Assembly (NCBI GenBank): GCA_019113825.1
Contig: DXGR01000092.1
Location: forward strand, 7,978-71,977
Reading direction: 5' to 3'
Length of the DNA: 64,000 bases
Source of the DNA: Candidatus Stackebrandtia excrementipullorum
GTDB lineage: Bacteria > Actinomycetota > Actinomycetes > Mycobacteriales > Micromonosporaceae
Shown: positions 3,868 through 57,336 of the stretch, piece by piece
Layout of the letters: the number at the start of each line of letters is the position of its first letter
How positions within the stretch are numbered: position 1 is the stretch's first letter
The notes under the pieces: generated by a model
The model's input: the letters and a program-made list of their open reading frames with translations, nothing else
Told to the model about the DNA's origin: nothing
The model's database searches: none
Translations under genes and position numbers: made by a program

Positions 3868-4038
3868 TCAGCAGAAGCAGACGGACGAACAACCCGTGCT
3901 TGCACAGCAGGTGCGGTAACACGGGTAGGCGCAGGCGCAGTTGGGGCACGGTTCGACCCAGCAGTCCGCCGCGATCGCGGTCTGTTCGGGAACGAATCGG
4001 TTCAGGATGCGGTCGCCGATCCTGTTGAGGTACTTCAC
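3868..4038 (-). CDS. Small Cys-rich peptide (24-aa leader + 32-aa core with 10 Cys), putative RiPP/bacteriocin-like precursor
   Basis: GGAGAG RBS before GTG at 4038; MKYLNRIGDRILNRFVPEQTAIAA-DCWVEPCPNCACAYPCYRTCCASTGCSSVCFC; fills an otherwise empty gap. Confidence 0.8.
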   Translation of the reverse strand: MKYLNRIGDRILNRFVPEQTAIAADCWVEPCPNCACAYPCYRTCCASTGCSSVCFC

Positions 4039-5807: not shown

Positions 5808-7361
5808 TCACAGCATCGCCGCGCCAGAAGGCGTTTTCCGTCGCACTTGCACTCCTTTGAATTCCGGGAGGCCGGTTACCGTTGAGCGCACACGCGCAGA
5901 ACACCACTTTTGTGCGTATGGACGCGCCAAGCGGAGACACGAATCTGCGACCGGGCAAAAACATACGCAACGACAACCCTTATCGTCCCGTCGGCGGGTC
6001 TGTGTTGCCGTCCACGAACACGAACCACAGATCCCGACGCGTCGTCTCAGCCCGGATAACCACCACAGGCTCAGGAACGTCGCGACTCCGATCGCCACCG
6101 CCGCCTGCGCGGTCAGCCACCATCGGATGCCGCGACGAGGCAACAGTCCGGCGACCGGTAGCAACCACACGGCGAACGGAAGGTATATCCGCTCGGCTTC
6201 GCCCACGGACAGGCCCGACACCAATGCAATGAGCACGACCACACCGATCGATGCCGGAACAACACAGAAGCGGTCACGCCGCAGCCACGCCAACGCCGCA
6301 CAGGTGGCGGGCCCTATCGCCAACGCCAGGGCCGCCGGGTTGGCGAACCAGAAATACCACGCGGGTCGATCTATCCATCCTTGACCGACCCGCACTTTCT
6401 GCGTGGCCAGGTCAAGCCCTTCAAACCAGTTGAATCCGGCGGCATACGCGGCGAGGAACAGTGCCACAACCACGATCCCACCCACGATCAGGGGACGGAT
6501 ACGTCGCTGTACGAGAACCACCGCGACCGCAAGAATGCCGATCAGAGCCAGCCCGTACGACAGAAAAAGGCTCAAACCGAGCACGAGCCCACCGGCTGCG
6601 GCGATGGCATCGCTTTCCATCCCTCGGCGGGCCGCGGCGTGCACGAGCAGGCACACCCCGATCGCGGCGAATCCGGCGAAGAACGCGTCGGCGCTGGTGG
6701 CGATCCACAACGCGGCCGGAGCGAATACGACGAACGGTGCTGCTCGACGCGCCACCGTCGCCGAGGCGAGGATCCGTGTGGCGGACAGCGTTGCCACACC
6801 TGCTGCGGCTCCCATACCGATGCACAGGACCGCGGCCGGCCCTCCACCGCCCCACCCGATACGGTCCATGATGGTGAGTAGCCCCAGGAAGCCCGGCGGG
6901 TGACCGGAAACATGAGTGGTCCACCGTGGTGGGTCCATGACGTGGTTGTTGAACTCGGCCAGAAACACCGACAGGTCGGTGACACGAGGCACGTCGTTCA
7001 GGTATTCGTAGGGTGTTGTGAGCGGTTCGGTCAGGGCGTTCGGTCCGTCCAACAGCGCCAACAGCACCGGCCAGACGACCCCGACACAGTAGACGACGAT
7101 CAGCAGCATCCGCCACGGAAGCAGTCGCGCCAGAAGCGGCCCCCACCGGATCCACAGCACCGCGGCCACCAACAGTACCGCGGTCCAGGCGTTGACGCGG
7201 ACTTCCCAATGCCCGGCAACCGGCCACGCGTCGCCCAGATGCAGGCGGTAACCGGACGCGTCCAGGTGACTTCCCCAGACGGCGCAACCGACGACCAGCG
7301 CGACGGCGACCACGACGATCGCAACGCTTATCCGACGTCGAGTCCCGGTGGAGAGCGCCAT
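5808..7361 (-). CDS. Polytopic membrane protein, GT-C glycosyltransferase-like; possible stop-codon loss
   Basis: Many TM segments, HVSGHPPG motif, E-x-ERI-x-LPF near the C terminus; hydrophilic tail after FLSLW. Confidence 0.7.
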   Translation of the reverse strand: MALSTGTRRRISVAIVVVAVALVVGCAVWGSHLDASGYRLHLGDAWPVAGHWEVRVNAWTAVLLVAAVLWIRWGPLLARLLPWRMLLIVVYCVGVVWPVLLALLDGPNALTEPLTTPYEYLNDVPRVTDLSVFLAEFNNHVMDPPRWTTHVSGHPPGFLGLLTIMDRIGWGGGGPAAVLCIGMGAAAGVATLSATRILASATVARRAAPFVVFAPAALWIATSADAFFAGFAAIGVCLLVHAAARRGMESDAIAAAGGLVLGLSLFLSYGLALIGILAVAVVLVQRRIRPLIVGGIVVVALFLAAYAAGFNWFEGLDLATQKVRVGQGWIDRPAWYFWFANPAALALAIGPATCAALAWLRRDRFCVVPASIGVVVLIALVSGLSVGEAERIYLPFAVWLLPVAGLLPRRGIRWWLTAQAAVAIGVATFLSLWWLSGLRRRVGICGSCSWTATQTRRRDDKGCRCVCFCPVADSCLRLARPYAQKWCSARVRSTVTGLPEFKGVQVRRKTPSGAAML

Positions 7362-52314: not shown

Positions 52315-53081
52315 TCACCGCAGGAAATCCCCGACCAAACGTGCCACCTCCTGCGGCGCCTGCGTCACCATGCCGTGGCCTGCATCGAATTCGGCGGTAA
52401 CAAGATTCGTGCGTCGAGCGGCAAGCTTCGCCACGTCCTCACGCACTCCGGCTCGGTGAGCCGCCGTCAACTCCTTGAGGTGATCGGGGACGCCCGCCAG
52501 GTCATGAGCCGCCGACACGAGCAAAACGGAACATCAACCTTCGCAACGACCGGTAGACAGTCGACGAACCAGTCCGATCGGCGGACGGCCTCGACCGTGG
52601 CCGCCGAGACCCGCAGGTAGGCCCGGTCGTCACGAACCCGAACCGCACGAGGTGACATGGCGGCGACCGCCGCGTCCGGTAGCGGGGCCGCCATCGCAGC
52701 CGACTGGGCGTCGAACATCGCCGCAAGTTCGGCGAGAGCCTCATCACGACGGTCGTCGCTCATACCCCGATAGTTCCTGCCGCCCAGCGAGTGGCCCACG
52801 ATCGCGGGCCGGTCGAGGCCGCACCGTTTCGCGACGGCGTGCAGGTCTGCGAGAACCGCATCCAGGTCCCACTCGGCGTCGTCGGAGTGGCCGTGGCCGC
52901 GTAGATCCATGGATACGAGACGAAATCCGGCGAGGTGAGGTGTCAGTGGTGTCCAATCGTCGAGAGTCCCCCCGAGGCCGTGAATCAGCATCAAGTCGGG
53001 TCCGATACCTCCGTGGTCGCGAGCGGCGATCGCGATGTCGCCGTGTTCCACGTACATGTCAGTGATGTGATCGTCTCGCAT
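52315..53081 (-). pseudogene. Alpha/beta hydrolase, frameshifted and internally deleted
   Basis: LIHGLGG, DLRGHGHS, GHSLGG nucleophile, catalytic His in DAGHG in another frame; 1-bp loss in the run at 52523-52526. Confidence 0.75.
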
Positions 53082-53585: not shown

Positions 53586-54536
53586 CTACCTATTTCCGGG
53601 CTGTTCCCTCCGTACCGCCAACGGAAGTGAGAACGTCACGTCCTCCACCACGGCGATGTCCTCCTCCACGACCACCGGACCGAGACCACCCAGGAACGTC
53701 ACGACGGCCTCGACCAGGTGAGGTGGCGCCGAAGCCCCCGCGGTCAACCCCACAACCGAAACACCCTCCAGCCAGCGGAGGTCGATGTCGTCGACATCCT
53801 CGATCAAACGGGCTTCGGCACCGGCACCGTCGGCCAGCTCCACCAGACGCCGCGAATTCGACGAATTGGCCGACCCCACCACCAGAACCAGCTGCGCACG
53901 ATGCGCGACGCGCGCCAACGCCGACTGACGATTCGACGTGGCGTAACAGATGTCCTCCACCGCCGGCCCTCTCAAACGGGGGAACCGTTCACGCAACACG
54001 GCGATGATCCGTTCGGTCTCCGACACCGACAACGTCGTCTGTGTCACATAGGAGACCCGCTCCGGGTCGGGAACGGTCACGGTCGCCGCATCGGTCTCGG
54101 ATTCAACCAACACGATCGAACCGGGCGCCTCCCCCATGGTCCCCGTCACCTCGTCGTGCCCGGCATGACCGATCAACACCACGGTGTCCCCGGCGGCCGC
54201 AAACCGACGCACCTGACCGTGCACCTTCGCCACCAGCGGACACGTCGCGTCGATGACGTCGAGTCCCCGTCTCGCCGCGTCGTCACGTACCTGCGGCGCG
54301 ACACCGTGCGCCGAGAAGACGACACACGCACCGTCCGGCACGGCGTCCAGCTCGGAAACAAAGACCGCGCCCTTGGTCTCCAGCTCGGCTACGACATGTG
54401 TGTTGTGCACGATCTGCCTGCGCACGTACACGGGTGCTCCATATCGAACCAATGCGAGTTCGACGATCTCGATGGCGCGCTCCACCCCCGCACAGAAAGC
54501 TCGAGGCGAGGCCAACAACACGGTTCGTGGGGACAT
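53586..54536 (-). CDS. ispH: 4-hydroxy-3-methylbut-2-enyl diphosphate reductase
   Basis: PRAFCAGVERA, IVHN, FSAHG, DATCPLVAKVH, GHAGHDEV, ICYATSNRQ, SSNS, TAGASAP. Confidence 0.97.
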   Translation of the reverse strand: MSPRTVLLASPRAFCAGVERAIEIVELALVRYGAPVYVRRQIVHNTHVVAELETKGAVFVSELDAVPDGACVVFSAHGVAPQVRDDAARRGLDVIDATCPLVAKVHGQVRRFAAAGDTVVLIGHAGHDEVTGTMGEAPGSIVLVESETDAATVTVPDPERVSYVTQTTLSVSETERIIAVLRERFPRLRGPAVEDICYATSNRQSALARVAHRAQLVLVVGSANSSNSRRLVELADGAGAEARLIEDVDDIDLRWLEGVSVVGLTAGASAPPHLVEAVVTFLGGLGPVVVEEDIAVVEDVTFSLPLAVRREQPGNR

Positions 54537-54583
54537 TGACGAAACTCCTCGACTCGGTCGGTGACAGGGCGACGACAATCGAC

Positions 54584-55627
54584 TTAATGGTCGCGGCAGG
54601 TGACCAGCCGCGCCAACGCCTCCAGTTCCGCCGTCGACCGTCGGTTCAGGCCGCCGTTTCGCAGCCGCTCGACGGCTCGCTCCAGCAGAGCATCGGCCTC
54701 CCGACCCGACCATAGGCGACCGCCGGCCGCCACGATCAGGTCAGCCGCCACGGCACGGTCGGCCGGGCTCAATTCACCGTCGCGGTAATACAGGCGAGCG
54801 AGTCGTCGTCCATGAGGGGTCGCCGAATTCAACGCCGCCACGACCGGCAGCGACTTCTTGCGGTTGTACAGATCCGAATGCGCCGGCTTGCCCGTCACCA
54901 CCGGGTCACCCCAGATACCCAGAAGATCGTCGACGAATTGGAACGCCAACCCGAGTTCCGAACCGAAGGTGCGCAACAACGCCACCTGGTCACGGTCACC
55001 ACCGCCGAACAACGCCCCCAGGGCACACGCGCCACCCAACAACGCACCCGTCTTGGACGCGGCCATGGCCACACACTCCTCAACGGCCACGTCGCCTCGC
55101 CGTTCGAAGGCCATGTCGACGCTTTGCCCGTCGATCAGTTCCTGAATCGTGGCGTTCAACAGCCGCACCCCCTCCACGGCACGGGGGTGGCCGTCGGCCG
55201 CCACGACGTCCATCGCCAGCGTCGACAGTGCGTCACCGGCCAAAATCGCCTCGCCCTCACCGAACACCGTCCACGCCGTGGGTCGATGGCGACGTGTCAC
55301 GTCCCGATCGATCACGTCGTCGTGCAGCAGCGAAAAGTTGTGCACCAACTCGACGGCGGCCGCCGCCCGTACCGCCGCAGGCCCCGCCTCGCCGACGGCC
55401 TCGGCGCACACCAACGCCAACGTCGGTCGGATTGCCTTCCCGCCCGGCTCCTCCACAGTGCACCCCTCGGCATCCCACCAGCCCAGGTGATAACCCGCGA
55501 TGCGACGCATCGTGGGCCCCAACGTGTCGACGGCGTCACGCAGAACCGGTTCGATTCGCCGCCTAGCCGCCCGGATCACCTCGGCTGCGGTCCGGCTTTC
55601 GGCTATGTCCGTCGTGGTCATGTCCAT
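54584..55627 (-). CDS. Short-chain polyprenyl diphosphate synthase (encapsulin-cargo type)
   Basis: GGKAIRP, HNFSLLHDDVID (FARM), RRHRPT, KTGAL, FQFVDDLLGIWGDP..TGKP..SDL..RKKSLPV. Confidence 0.93.
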   Translation of the reverse strand: MDMTTTDIAESRTAAEVIRAARRRIEPVLRDAVDTLGPTMRRIAGYHLGWWDAEGCTVEEPGGKAIRPTLALVCAEAVGEAGPAAVRAAAAVELVHNFSLLHDDVIDRDVTRRHRPTAWTVFGEGEAILAGDALSTLAMDVVAADGHPRAVEGVRLLNATIQELIDGQSVDMAFERRGDVAVEECVAMAASKTGALLGGACALGALFGGGDRDQVALLRTFGSELGLAFQFVDDLLGIWGDPVVTGKPAHSDLYNRKKSLPVVAALNSATPHGRRLARLYYRDGELSPADRAVAADLIVAAGGRLWSGREADALLERAVERLRNGGLNRRSTAELEALARLVTCRDH

Positions 55628-55685
55628 CCTTCTTCGCCGACAAACGGAAAAAGCCGGATGGTTTGCTCCACCCGGCCGTCAATGA

Positions 55686-56141
55686 TCAGCCGTATCGACC
55701 GATCTCGACACTCTCCAACATCCCCAACGCATCGGGCACAAGGGTGCCGACCGGGAACGACCTGATGGCCTTCTCATCCGTCCTCGTGAAACGCATCGAC
55801 AGACCCGGCCGGTACCCGTCGGGGGCGCCCGTCTGACGTAGGCGGACCACGCCCTCATCGTCGTCGACGCCATGCAAGATCGGCAGGCCTTCCGGTTCCG
55901 GTGGGATCGTGCGCCCCCGGGGACCGGCATCGGCAAACGAGCTCCACCGGTCTCCGACGGTGTGAGTGAGACGACGGTGCCCGCGATAAACGCCGCTGGT
56001 CCGCACCCACTGTCGGATCTTCACCGGCCATCGCAACGAAATGCCCTGCCTCCGCGGAATCGACTTCGTCGTGGCCGGGTTTCTGACGGTGGCGGTGGAC
56101 AAGCTCCGATTCTTTGGTTCGGTCTCCACTGCGACAGGCAT
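55686..56141 (-). pseudogene. Truncated, decayed family 2B encapsulin shell gene
   Basis: SLSTATVRNPATTKSIPRRQGISLRWPVKIRQWVRTSGVYRGHRRLTHTVGD matches the recalled N terminus of family 2B shells; stops after 151 aa; directly upstream of the cargo-type prenyltransferase. Confidence 0.75.
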
Positions 56142-56367
56142 GGTCGTCCCCCGTATATATCGAGTCGGGAAGCACCGGCCGGTCATGGCCGGGGTGCGCA
56201 CCGAACAGTAGAGCGTCACCGGGTCACGACTTGACAGCACGCGCCGACAACAGCGCCAATTTCTGCTTTGCTAAATCTTGCGGCCCAACAGATGGACGTA
56301 TGTCGCCGTTCGGCGCGAAACCTCGCGGTTCTTCCCCCCCACCGCTTCGGTGCCATAGCCTTCACTC

Positions 56368-57336
56368 ATGAGCGATCTCGACATCCGGCCGACCGTGCGG
56401 GAATGCGGCGGCCGCGCCGACGTCACGGCACAACCCGTCCGGGAACTGTTGACCGGGCGTGACATGCCCCTGGGAGAAAGCACGGTGGTGCGGCGTCTGC
56501 TCCCGACTCTCGGACGCCGCATGATCGGAGCATGGTGTTTCGTGGACCACTACGGTCCCGACGACATCGTCGACAAACCGGGTATGCAGGTGCCACCACA
56601 CCCGCATACCGGCCTGCAAACGGTCAGTTGGCTCCGGCAAGGCGAGATTCTCCACAATGACAGCCTCGGAAGCAGCCAGGTCCTCACACCCGGCGCCCTC
56701 GGATTGATGACCGCCGGCCGAGGCATATCGCACTCCGAACAGACGCCACGCTCCCACGCGCCGCTTCTGCACGGTGCTCAACTGTGGGTGGCGCTACCCG
56801 ACGAACACCGCCACGTCGCACCCGCCTGGGAGTACCACCAGGGCACTCCGGTCGATCACGGGTCGGGAGTGACGTCGACGGTGATCCTCGGCGAGTTCGC
56901 GAACGTCACCTCACCCGGTACGACGTATTCACCGTTGGTCGGGGTGGCGCTCGACGTCGCCGGAGGGACTTCCACGAACCTGCCGTTGGAACGCGACTTC
57001 GAGTACGCGGCGCTGGCCATGCACGGGCGCGTCGATATCGACGGTGTACCCGTGGAACCGGGAAGTCTTCTCTATCTGGGCAGCGGCCGCAGCCGACTAC
57101 CCGTAGAGGCCACACACGACGGTGCCGTCATGCTGTTGGGTGGAGAACCCTTCGAGGAGAAGCTCCTCATGTGGTGGAACTTCATCGGGAGGACCGACGA
57201 CGAGGTCCGGCGGTACCGCGACCAGTGGCAACAACGGGACCCGCGTTTCGGTGAGGTCGACTCGTACGACGGGGCACGCCTGTCCGCGCCACCGTTCCCC
57301 GACCTTCCGTTGAAGCCGCGCGGCCGTACCAGGTAA
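56368..57336 (+). CDS. Pirin family protein
   Basis: WCFVDHYGP, PHPHTGLQTVSW, H.DSLG, MTAGRGISHSE, QLWVALP, GGEPF.E...MWWNF. Confidence 0.95.
   Translation: MSDLDIRPTVRECGGRADVTAQPVRELLTGRDMPLGESTVVRRLLPTLGRRMIGAWCFVDHYGPDDIVDKPGMQVPPHPHTGLQTVSWLRQGEILHNDSLGSSQVLTPGALGLMTAGRGISHSEQTPRSHAPLLHGAQLWVALPDEHRHVAPAWEYHQGTPVDHGSGVTSTVILGEFANVTSPGTTYSPLVGVALDVAGGTSTNLPLERDFEYAALAMHGRVDIDGVPVEPGSLLYLGSGRSRLPVEATHDGAVMLLGGEPFEEKLLMWWNFIGRTDDEVRRYRDQWQQRDPRFGEVDSYDGARLSAPPFPDLPLKPRGRTR

What the first reader, a model, noticed from the sequence alone, without database searches (positions are those of the whole stretch)
55628..56141. Fossil family 2B encapsulin shell gene in front of its cargo enzyme
Seen: a 151-aa ORF that would be called hypothetical. 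Its sequence SLSTATVRNPATT-KSIPRRQGISLRWPVKIRQWVRTS-GVYRGHRRLTHTVGD..IPPEPEGLPILHGVDDDE tracks the recalled family 2B shell N terminus (SLxTAAARNLATTTKSxPQMQxISSRWLLxxLPWVxxxGGxYRVNRRLxYxVGDG..IPxELGELPxLRGFDDxE). A shifted frame near 55700-55660 reads DRSIRLIIDGRVEQ, like the start of the inserted cNMP-binding domain. The remaining roughly 300 aa of the HK97 shell are missing. Established: family 2B shells are encoded beside polyprenyl-transferase or terpene-cyclase cargo genes. Inference: this lineage lost the nanocompartment but kept the cargo enzyme intact, a natural test of whether encapsulation is needed. Alternatively, a paralogous shell elsewhere loads the cargo in trans.
Basis: partly seen in the sequence, partly recalled or inferred. 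Interest (0 to 1): 0.75.

Follow-up and report, generated by a model that had tools for sequence, protein, structure and literature searches.

The report
Gutted encapsulin shell gene, cargo intact
A 151-codon gene is the leftover of a protein-shell (family 2B encapsulin) gene that lost its middle 300 codons, while the two terpenoid-precursor enzyme genes behind it stayed intact; it is a real but fairly ordinary pseudogene that offers a natural comparison of the enzyme with and without its local shell gene.

Summary
The ORF is real: window 55686..56141, minus strand, 151 aa. It descends from a family 2B encapsulin shell gene (NCBIfam NF041163, E 7e-27; solved shell 9bhu, E 4e-32).

It is an in-frame internal deletion, not a 3' truncation. 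Residues 5-96 match shell profile positions 8-101 (N-arm). Residues 93-149 match positions 403-465 (C-terminus). About 300 codons are gone: the whole cNMP-binding domain and about three quarters of the HK97 part. The breakpoints lie in a short direct repeat that encodes E-D-[D/N]-E at both sites.

The remnant is decaying:
- 17 of 41 columns invariant in 87 intact shells are changed.
- dN is about 9 times that of the sister lineage.
- A further 15-bp deletion is polymorphic in the population.

The deletion appears in more than 20 independent metagenome assemblies, so it is not an assembly collapse. Syntenic relatives carry intact 465-468 aa shells at this position. One relative carries an independent TAG at codon 101.

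The polyprenyl transferase and IspH genes downstream are intact and show unchanged constraint.

It is the shell stop region plus one arm of a conserved hairpin that follows the shell gene.

Whether an intact shell exists elsewhere in this genome could not be tested. Interest is modest.

The parts
55686..56141 (-). 151-aa remnant ORF of a family 2B encapsulin shell gene. It keeps the native start (ATG, where relatives have GTG) with a GGGGGA Shine-Dalgarno-like run upstream, and the native stop region.
55854..56141 (-). Residues 1-96: the shell N-terminal segment (N-extension, N-arm and everything before the cNMP-binding domain), matching profile positions 8-101. Two 1-codon deletions lie in codon repeats (ACG ACG ACC to ACG ACG; GGC GGC to GGC).
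55851..55865 (-). Deletion junction, GAC GAC GAT GAG GGC (D-D-D-E-G). It matches both the N-side repeat (GAG GAC GAT GAG G in L057, residues 98-101) and the C-side repeat (GAG GAC AAC GAG G in L001, residues 403-406). About 300 codons between them are lost.
55686..55853 (-). Residues 97-151 plus the stop codon: the shell C-terminal segment, matching profile positions about 407-465. The equivalents of the cargo-pocket residues F430 (kept) and Y441 (now F) fall here. The L264 and L285 equivalents are deleted.
55742..55743 (-). Site of a further 15-bp in-frame deletion (CACTATTCGGCGGTG, encoding HYSAV) that is polymorphic in the species. The allele in L091 (protein P0154, 156 aa; 99.7% identical DNA overall) still has these bases.
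55652..55677 (-). Stem-loop (10 pairs) followed by a U-rich run, in the 58-nt spacer between the remnant and the PT gene. It is the weakened counterpart of a strong GC hairpin that follows the shell stop codon in relatives.
54584..55627 (-). Intact polyprenyl transferase of the 'family 2 encapsulin cargo' type, similar to GGPP synthase. Motifs LLHDDVIDRD and FVDDLLG are present. A conserved RBS, AAGAAGGATGG, precedes the ATG.
53586..54536 (-). Intact IspH/LytB (HMBPP reductase) gene, the third gene of the conserved shell-PT-ispH unit.
56142..56367 (.). Divergent intergenic region between the pirin gene (56368..57336, plus strand) and the remnant. It is the presumed promoter region of the former shell operon. 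No sigma-70 consensus match was found, and it is poorly conserved with L001 and L057.

Best explanation
The ORF is a dead family 2B encapsulin shell gene.

Origin. In the ancestor the locus read pirin <> shell (about 466 aa) - polyprenyl transferase - IspH, as it still does in the closest relatives. Recombination or replication slippage between two short direct repeats removed about 300 codons. Both repeats encode E-D-[D/N]-E, in the same codon phase, about 0.9 kb apart. The N-terminal 96 residues were fused in frame to the last 55 residues.

Consequence for the protein. The product lacks the whole cNMP-binding insertion and about three quarters of the HK97 part of the shell protein (S. albiflava residues 227-402 of 227-466), by implication the P-domain and most of the A-domain. 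It also lacks two of the four residues of the cargo-binding pocket. It cannot build a shell.

Decay since then (inferred). The remnant has drifted essentially without constraint: many changes at otherwise invariant positions, small slippage deletions, and one further deletion still polymorphic.

Why it is still an ORF (inferred). The big deletion was in frame for mechanistic reasons, and stop codons arise slowly in 65% GC DNA.

Current role (inferred). It is still transcribed at a low level, most simply as the 5' part of the old operon transcript. The PT and IspH genes remain under normal purifying selection and presumably work as free cytosolic enzymes that convert HMBPP to IPP/DMAPP and then to a polyprenyl (GGPP-like) diphosphate.
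For: Homology and anatomy:
- NF041163 matches in two stretches with a whole-protein E of 7e-27, but the score is 94.6 bits against a cut-off of 400.
- The profile of 87 intact shells maps residues 5-96 to positions 8-101 and residues 93-149 to positions 403-465.
- tblastn and PDB searches agree.
- The cNMP-binding domain lies at about residues 88-214 and the HK97 part at 227-466 of the S. albiflava shell.

Orthology by synteny: intact shells occupy the same slot in L001, L094 and L096.

Breakpoint repeats and codon-repeat slippage are visible in the DNA.

Decay:
- 17 of 41 invariant columns and 24 of 69 columns at 95% conservation or more are changed. Intact shells average 0.75 changes, maximum 6.
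- Window-branch dN is 0.25 against 0.03 in sister L094; omega is 0.44 against 0.07.
- Cargo, ispH and pirin have equal dN on both branches, with omega 0.12-0.18.
- The species carries a polymorphic 15-bp deletion and an M-to-T variant.

Reality of the deletion: at least 23 contigs from independent assemblies, 99.4-99.98% identical to the window, carry it, and DNA contigs span the junction.

Transcription: one RNA-library contig covers 55807-56128, across the junction.

No other shell-like sequence occurs in the 64-kb window in any frame.

Intact cargo: NF041169 scores 459.6 bits against a cut-off of 450, over its full length.
Against: - The reading frame is open over 151 codons, all five indels are multiples of three, and the native RBS and start are kept. 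This could hint at selection for translation. However, three indels lie in codon repeats, the large deletion lies between in-phase repeats, and neutral simulation gives P(no stop) of 0.1-0.3. The hint is therefore weak.
- The branch-average omega is 0.44, not 1. That fits neutrality over roughly the last 40% of the branch, but it also fits continuing weak constraint. dS of about 0.6-1.0 is near saturation.
- The RNA evidence is one low-depth contig in one of three RNA libraries, and it may include DNA carry-over.
- The structure prediction was uninformative: single sequence, mean pLDDT 37.
Confidence: 0.85

Rival explanations
1. The mini-ORF is kept open by selection. Either translation through it is needed to express the downstream PT-ispH genes (translational coupling, or avoidance of Rho-dependent polarity), or the N-arm/C-terminus fusion has acquired a function of its own.
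For: - The frame is open, the native Shine-Dalgarno-like run and start codon are retained, and all five indels are in frame.
- The remnant is transcribed.
- Other in-frame internally deleted shell ORFs exist in public data: P0005, P0006, P0008, P0013 and P0047.
Against: - Every in-frame indel has a mechanistic explanation.
- Stop-free survival under neutrality is not unlikely (P 0.1-0.3).
- 17 of 41 invariant positions are changed, and a 5-codon deletion plus a missense variant segregate within a population that is 99.4-99.98% identical.
- Protein databases list only ORFs, so the in-frame examples are an ascertainment effect.
- In L092 and L093 such remnants sit beside an intact shell paralogue.
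- A hairpin with a U-run lies between the remnant and the PT gene, and the PT gene has its own conserved RBS.
Confidence: 0.1
2. The nanocompartment is not lost. An intact family 2 shell encoded elsewhere in the genome packages this PT in trans, so only a redundant local copy decayed. This is compatible with the local gene being dead.
For: - Two-shell operons are common: 18 of the 80 related loci have two tandem shells (PMC8346489).
- Where internally deleted second copies were found (L092, L093), an intact copy sits next to them.
- Actinomycetes often carry several family 2B systems (PMC11550324; bioRxiv 10.64898/2026.07.21.739788).
Against: - No other shell-like sequence occurs in the 64-kb window.
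- The syntenic relatives have a single shell at this locus.
- Nothing beyond the window could be searched, so this rival is untested rather than disfavoured.
Confidence: 0.2
3. The short gene is an assembly or sequencing artefact: a collapse between repeats in a full-length shell gene.
For: The breakpoints lie in a short direct repeat, which is the kind of sequence at which collapses can occur.
Against: - The repeat is only about 13 bp, far below read length.
- The identical junction appears in at least 23 contigs from different samples and assemblers (ENA, Logan and NCBI).
- Single contigs of 12-16 kb cross it with no mismatch.
- The flanking retained parts are heavily diverged, which a collapse would not cause.
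Confidence: 0.01

Closest known systems
Family 2B encapsulin shell proteins (NCBIfam NF041163; Streptomyces griseus EshA/Sg Enc, solved shell structures 9bhu/9bix/9bje; PMC11550324)
   Same: Clear homology at both ends: residues 5-96 and 93-149. It occupies the same operon position, directly upstream of a polyprenyl transferase and IspH, with the same start codon position and the same hairpin after the stop codon as orthologues.
   Different: It lacks profile positions of about 102-402: the cNMP-binding insertion with its metal-binding subdomain, the linker, and about three quarters of the HK97 part. The score is 94.6 bits against a cut-off of 400. 17 of 41 invariant residues in the retained parts are changed. 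It cannot form a shell.
Orthologous intact loci in Stackebrandtia albiflava DSM 45044 (L001) and in uncultured relatives (L094/L095, L096/L097)
   Same: Same gene order (ABC transporter, pirin <> shell, PT, ispH, and further on nudix and LigD). PT is 71-72% identical, IspH 74-82% and pirin 73-78%.
   Different: Their shells are full length (465-468 aa) and are the most conserved proteins of the locus: 89-92% identical among L094, L096 and L098, against 73-79% for the PT. The window's retained segments are only 60% identical to L094.
Other disrupted family 2B shell genes found here: L098/L099 (TAG at codon 101), P0047 in L092, P0005 in L093
   Same: Shell inactivated while PT and ispH stay intact. 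P0047 and P0005 are also in-frame N-terminus/C-terminus fusions. The L098 stop lies within a few codons of the window's 5' breakpoint.
   Different: L098 has a single GAG-to-TAG change in an otherwise perfectly conserved gene, so it is a very recent event, and it is independent because its sister L094 is intact. In L092 and L093 the decayed copy is the second of two shells and an intact copy remains adjacent. In the window the only local copy is gone.
Family 4 'A-domain' encapsulins (PF08967/DUF1884; PMC8346489)
   Same: Short (about 100-150 aa) proteins derived from an HK97-fold shell protein and encoded next to an enzyme.
   Different: Family 4 proteins retain a complete, conserved A-domain and form a stable family. 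This ORF retains only the last 55-60 residues plus the N-arm, has no PF08967 hit, is confined to one species, and shows decay.

Membership tests
Family 2B encapsulin shell protein (NF041163) | Whole-protein score at or above the curated cut-off (400 bits) | tested here: not met
   94.6 bits, with two partial stretches only
Family 2B encapsulin shell protein (NF041163) | Complete HK97-type shell-forming domain (E-loop, P-domain, A-domain) | tested here: not met
   Only profile positions 403-465 of the C-terminal HK97 part (about 227-466) remain. The PF19307 match covers model positions 192-254 of 254 only.
Family 2B encapsulin shell protein (NF041163) | Internal cNMP-binding domain insertion, the feature that separates 2B from 2A | tested here: not met
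   No PF00027 hit. Profile positions 102-402 are absent. The shifted-frame 'fragment' scores -2.6 bits.
Family 2B encapsulin shell protein (NF041163) | Conserved N-arm sequence (SLSTAAARNLATTTKS.PQMQGISSRWLL..LPW...GG.YRVNRRL) | tested here: inconclusive
   Homology is certain (66.8 bits, E 8e-23), but many invariant residues are replaced or deleted (17 of 41 across the retained parts).
Family 2B encapsulin shell protein (NF041163) | Encoded next to a terpenoid-pathway cargo gene (polyprenyl transferase or terpene cyclase) | tested here: met
   A PT matching NF041169 starts 58 nt downstream, followed by ispH. Gene order is the same as in loci with an intact shell.
Family 2B encapsulin shell protein (NF041163) | Self-assembly into a T=1 icosahedral shell | not testable with these tools
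   Requires expression followed by TEM or SEC. The single-sequence AlphaFold2 model is not confident (mean pLDDT 37).
Family 2 encapsulin cargo polyprenyl transferase (NF041169) | Whole-protein score at or above the curated cut-off (450 bits), full-length match | tested here: met
   459.6 bits; residues 14-347 match model positions 1-334 of 334
Family 2 encapsulin cargo polyprenyl transferase (NF041169) | Catalytic first and second aspartate-rich motifs (DDxxD) | tested here: met
   LLHDDVIDRD and FQFVDDLLG are in the translation. PF00348 scores 192 bits.
Family 2 encapsulin cargo polyprenyl transferase (NF041169) | Disordered terminal cargo-loading domain (50-100 residues at the N-terminus, as described for encapsulin-associated PTs in PMC8346489) | tested here: not met
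   Only about 12 residues precede the first conserved helix, both in the window and in orthologues that have intact shells. There is no C-terminal extension. The feature is therefore uninformative for this clade.
Family 2 encapsulin cargo polyprenyl transferase (NF041169) | Physical encapsulation in a family 2B shell | not testable with these tools
   The papers read describe it only as an in-silico association (PMC8346489; bioRxiv 10.64898/2026.07.21.739788).
Family 4 A-domain encapsulin (PF08967) | Match to the DUF1884/A-domain model | tested here: not met
   The only Pfam hit is PF19307, over its C-terminal end.

The most novel reading that the evidence does not exclude
Shell loss is not mere decay but is favoured and recurrent in this Stackebrandtia-like group. 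Two sister lineages disabled the same, otherwise extremely conserved, shell gene independently and within a few codons of each other: the window's deletion begins at about codon 99-101, and L098 has GAG-to-TAG at codon 101. Both kept PT and IspH under full constraint. In this reading the in-frame mini-ORF, or in L098 the split into an N-arm peptide plus a GTG-started cNMP-binding/HK97 protein, is retained because translation through it, or the pieces themselves, still serve PT-IspH expression or function.
Probability: 0.12. Interest if true: 0.55.

Novelty: new member of a known kind. Interest (0 to 1): 0.35.

Why it matters
What family 2B shells do for polyprenyl transferases is unknown. For the two cargo enzymes studied so far, 2-MIB synthase and geosmin synthase, encapsulation hardly changes kinetics (PMC11550324; bioRxiv 10.64898/2026.07.21.739788).

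This species, widespread in farm, poultry and manure metagenomes, has destroyed the only shell gene of the locus. Close relatives (PT 71-75% identical) keep theirs, and one relative has just acquired a stop codon. Together they form a ready-made comparative series:
- Does the PT still load into an orthologous shell?
- Does it behave differently when free?
- Does the terpenoid output change?

The finding that the PT and IspH evolve at the same rate and under the same constraint with or without the shell already suggests that the enzyme does not depend on the shell for its function.

The finding also warns annotators that short 'hypothetical' or 'Crp/Fnr partial' ORFs upstream of such PT genes can be shell relics. 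Beyond that, it is a pseudogene of a known family.

Tried and rejected
1. Rejected on a profile score of -2.6 bits, wrong order, and homology to the stop region and spacer of intact loci.
2. A second shell or displaced middle piece within the window. A six-frame profile search and tblastn found none.
3. Selection on the reading frame inferred from 5 of 5 in-frame indels. Dropped after the DNA showed codon-repeat slippage and in-phase direct repeats at every site.
4. Selection inferred from the absence of stop codons. Neutral simulation gives P of 0.1-0.3, and 177 stop-free stretches of at least 151 codons exist in the window's six frames. Uninformative.
5. Testing the cargo for a decayed loading peptide. 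This PT clade has no long disordered terminus even where shells are intact, so the test has no power.
6. Structure prediction of the remnant. Single sequence, mean pLDDT 37; not used further, and no fold search was run.
7. Population dN/dS within the remnant. The contigs were retrieved by exact protein identity, so zero variation among them is by construction. Only the cluster variants P0154 and P0155 are informative.
8. The word-index homologue search with the remnant returned only 3 proteins. The exhaustive search was needed.
9. A first codon alignment with MAFFT misplaced the C-terminal segment. It was redone with forced segments.
10. The species itself could not be named. The best genome hit is S. 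albiflava at 72% PT identity.
11. A sigma-70 promoter scan found nothing upstream.
12. A literature search for encapsulin pseudogenes found nothing relevant.

Full report
**The observation**

The minus strand of the window carries an ORF at 55686..56141. It has an ATG start, 151 codons and a TGA stop. A GTG-extended version of 184 codons runs to 56240.

Three genes follow on the same strand:
- A 347-aa polyprenyl transferase (PT) at 54584..55627, starting 58 nt downstream.
- An IspH/LytB gene at 53586..54536.
- A 159-aa ORF.

A pirin gene (56368..57336) lies upstream on the other strand.

**What the ORF is**

NCBIfam places the ORF in NF041163, the family 2B encapsulin shell protein, with E 7.2e-27. 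The score is only 94.6 bits against a curated cut-off of 400, and the match falls in two separate stretches. Pfam sees only the last 63 positions of PF19307.

I built a profile from 87 full-length shells found next to related PT genes. Against it:
- Residues 5-96 align to profile positions 8-101 (66.8 bits).
- Residues 93-149 align to positions 403-465 (52.3 bits).
- The four residues DDDE are shared by both alignments.

tblastn with the Stackebrandtia albiflava shell, and a search of solved structures, give the same picture (9bhu, 9bix and 9bje: E 4e-32 to 2e-29, two stretches each).

In the S. albiflava protein the cNMP-binding domain occupies about residues 88-214. The part shared with family 2A shells occupies 227-466.

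The ORF is therefore an in-frame fusion of the N-terminal arm to the last 55 residues. It lacks the entire cNMP-binding insertion and about three quarters of the HK97 part.

Four residues line the cargo-binding pocket of the S. griseus shell: L264, L285, F430 and Y441 (PMC11550324). They map to L262, L283, F428 and Y439 of S. albiflava. In the remnant the two leucines are deleted, the phenylalanine is kept and the tyrosine is now phenylalanine.

**Orthology and how the deletion arose**

The locus is collinear with S. albiflava DSM 45044 (L001): pirin, shell of 468 aa, PT, ispH, a 163-aa ORF and a hydrolase.

A search with the PT found three closer uncultured relatives:
- L094/L095 have an intact 466-aa shell.
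- L096/L097 have an intact 465-aa shell.
- L098/L099 have the shell gene interrupted by a single in-frame TAG at codon 101.

All four have one shell gene exactly where the window has the remnant. The start codon position and the Shine-Dalgarno-like run are conserved.

At the DNA level the junction reads GAC GAC GAT GAG GGC. Relatives have GAG GAC GAT GAG G at codons 98-101 and GAG GAC AAC GAG G at codons 403-406. A deletion between these in-phase direct repeats, about 0.9 kb apart, produces the observed in-frame fusion.

**Decay**

Three lines of evidence show that the remnant has lost constraint.

1. Conserved positions. Within the retained columns, 41 are invariant in all 87 intact shells, and the remnant differs at 17 of them. 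Of 69 columns conserved at 95% or more it differs at 24. Intact shells average 0.75 differences, with a maximum of 6.
2. Substitution rates. I used L094 as sister and L096 or L001 as outgroup.

| Gene | dN, window branch | dN, L094 branch | omega, window branch | omega, L094 branch |
|---|---|---|---|---|
| Shell, retained codons | 0.25 | 0.03 | 0.44 | 0.07 |
| PT | 0.10 | 0.09 | 0.16-0.17 | 0.15-0.16 |
| IspH | 0.08 | 0.04 | 0.13-0.18 | 0.08-0.11 |
| Pirin | 0.09 | 0.07 | 0.12-0.14 | 0.14 |

   In the relatives the shell is normally the best-conserved protein of the locus: 89-92% identical among L094, L096 and L098, against 73-79% for the PT. If omega became 1 after inactivation, the shell has been dead for very roughly the last 40% of this lineage's separate history. 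This estimate is rough because dS is near saturation.
3. Ongoing erosion. A variant allele (P0154, L091; DNA 99.7% identical overall) still has 15 bp, encoding HYSAV, that the window has lost. Another variant carries an M-to-T change.

**Is the ORF kept open by selection?**

All five indels are multiples of three, and there is no stop codon. I do not read either as evidence of selection.
- Three of the indels are losses of one unit from tandem codon repeats (ACG ACG ACC, GGC GGC, GCG GCG).
- The large deletion lies between in-phase repeats.
- Neutral simulation of 60-160 substitutions leaves the frame stop-free in 10-30% of trials. The window is 65% GC.

**Reality of the deletion**

The exact 151-aa protein is encoded on at least 23 contigs from independent ENA, NCBI and Logan assemblies. 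All have the same neighbours and are 99.4-99.98% identical to the window over up to 12 kb. The source runs are labelled farm, chicken gut, manure, food production, bovine, digester and soil metagenomes. Single DNA contigs of 12-16 kb cross the junction without a mismatch. Assembly collapse is excluded.

**Transcription**

One of three RNA libraries that contain this organism has a 322-nt contig (55807-56128) that spans the junction. All three show pieces of ispH or the PT, and two show pirin. Depth is low, and DNA carry-over cannot be excluded.

**The claimed cNMP fragment**

The peptide DRSIRLIIDGRVEQ does appear in a shifted frame at 55700-55659. It is not a relic of the cNMP-binding domain.
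- Its first third is a shifted reading of the conserved shell end, VEIGRYG-stop.
- The rest is the left arm of a stem-loop at 55677-55652.
- It aligns base for base with the spacer after the stop codon of relatives that have complete shells.
- Its profile score is -2.6 bits, below more than 20 chance fragments elsewhere in the window.

**The cargo side**

The PT passes the NF041169 cut-off over its full length (459.6 bits against 450). It keeps both aspartate-rich motifs and evolves under the same constraint as in shell-bearing relatives.

I could not test for a decayed loading peptide. In this PT clade only about 12 residues precede the first conserved helix, even where the shell is intact. 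The literature describes 50-100 disordered residues with no conserved motif, and treats PT encapsulation as an in-silico association (PMC8346489; bioRxiv 10.64898/2026.07.21.739788).

**How common is shell loss?**

- Of 80 related PT loci from different species, 71 have one or two shells upstream. All 87 of those shells are full length and free of stops.
- Nine loci have no shell within the available flank and no recognisable relic.
- The exhaustive protein search turned up other in-frame internally deleted shells with different breakpoints: P0005, P0006, P0008, P0013 and P0047.
- In the two I could place (L092, L093), the relic is the second copy of a two-shell operon and an intact copy sits beside it.
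- In the window the only local copy is gone.
- The TAG in L098/L099 is independent of the window's deletion, because L098's sister L094 is intact.

**Limits**

Only 64 kb of the genome is available, and the one genome-collection scan did not contain this species. An intact shell elsewhere in the genome is therefore neither shown nor excluded. The AlphaFold2 model of the remnant is not confident (mean pLDDT 37).

**Verdict**

This is a genuine relic of a family 2B shell gene. It arose by a repeat-mediated internal deletion, is fixed in one uncultured actinomycete species related to Stackebrandtia, and is still eroding. The PT-IspH pair is untouched.

Noticed in passing
L098 2535-3935 and L099 163-1563 (closest relative by PT identity, 74%): The orthologous shell gene is interrupted by one in-frame TAG at codon 101 (GAT GAC GAA TAG GTG; relatives have GAG). 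The remaining 365 codons are fully conserved, and a GTG follows the stop directly. The same sequence occurs in two independent runs. The event is independent of the window's deletion, because sister L094 is intact, yet it lies within a few codons of the window's 5' breakpoint.
   Followed up: partly
window 55652-55677 (minus strand); spacer after the last shell gene in 62 related loci (e.g. L001 5870-5903, L007 about 5915-5960, L094 and L098 about 3945-3985): A strong GC-rich hairpin follows the shell stop codon in most loci. The best 45-nt fold has a median of -31.7 kcal/mol, against -20.1 for in-gene controls; 76% against 10% are at or below -25; Mann-Whitney p = 3e-17. The window keeps a weakened version (-20.7) followed by a U-run. 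It may act as an intercistronic attenuator or an mRNA-stabilising element that sets the shell-to-cargo ratio.
   Followed up: partly
window 52467-53081 (minus strand), indel near 52527: The neighbouring alpha/beta-hydrolase gene carries a 1-bp deletion relative to L081. This gives a 204-aa frameshifted product instead of 255 aa. Both alleles occur in the population. Even the 255-aa form is 30-40 aa shorter than the orthologues (S. albiflava 294 aa, L098 285 aa), with residues missing just after the GHSLGG nucleophile motif. A second gene of this neighbourhood therefore appears to be decaying.
   Followed up: partly
L092 5001-5444 (P0047) and L093 5001-5486 (P0005): Other in-frame N-terminus/C-terminus fusion relics of family 2B shells, with different breakpoints. 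Each is the second shell gene of a two-shell operon next to an intact 471-474 aa shell. L092 reads shell, 72-aa ORF, relic, PT, ispH. L093 reads PT, ispH, shell, relic, 724-aa terpene synthase.
   Followed up: partly
window 53586-57336 compared with L001 and L057: Third-codon-position GC of the window's genes is 0.77, against 0.87-0.93 in the Stackebrandtia relatives. This is a marked compositional shift in this lineage, which is found in farm, poultry-gut and manure metagenomes.
   Followed up: no
window 54584-55627 and the PT genes of L001-L080: PTs of this 'encapsulin cargo' clade have only about 10-20 residues before the first conserved helix and no C-terminal extension, even beside intact shells. 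They lack the 50-100 residue disordered domain described for encapsulin-associated PTs, so how or whether they are loaded is unclear.
   Followed up: partly
L004, L005, L014, L018, L031, L037, L041, L052, L062: Nine of the 80 related PT loci have no shell gene and no recognisable relic within the available flank. In L005 and L031 the contig ends close to the PT gene, downstream of it in L005 and upstream in L031. Shell-less relatives of this PT clade therefore exist in other actinomycete genera.
   Followed up: no
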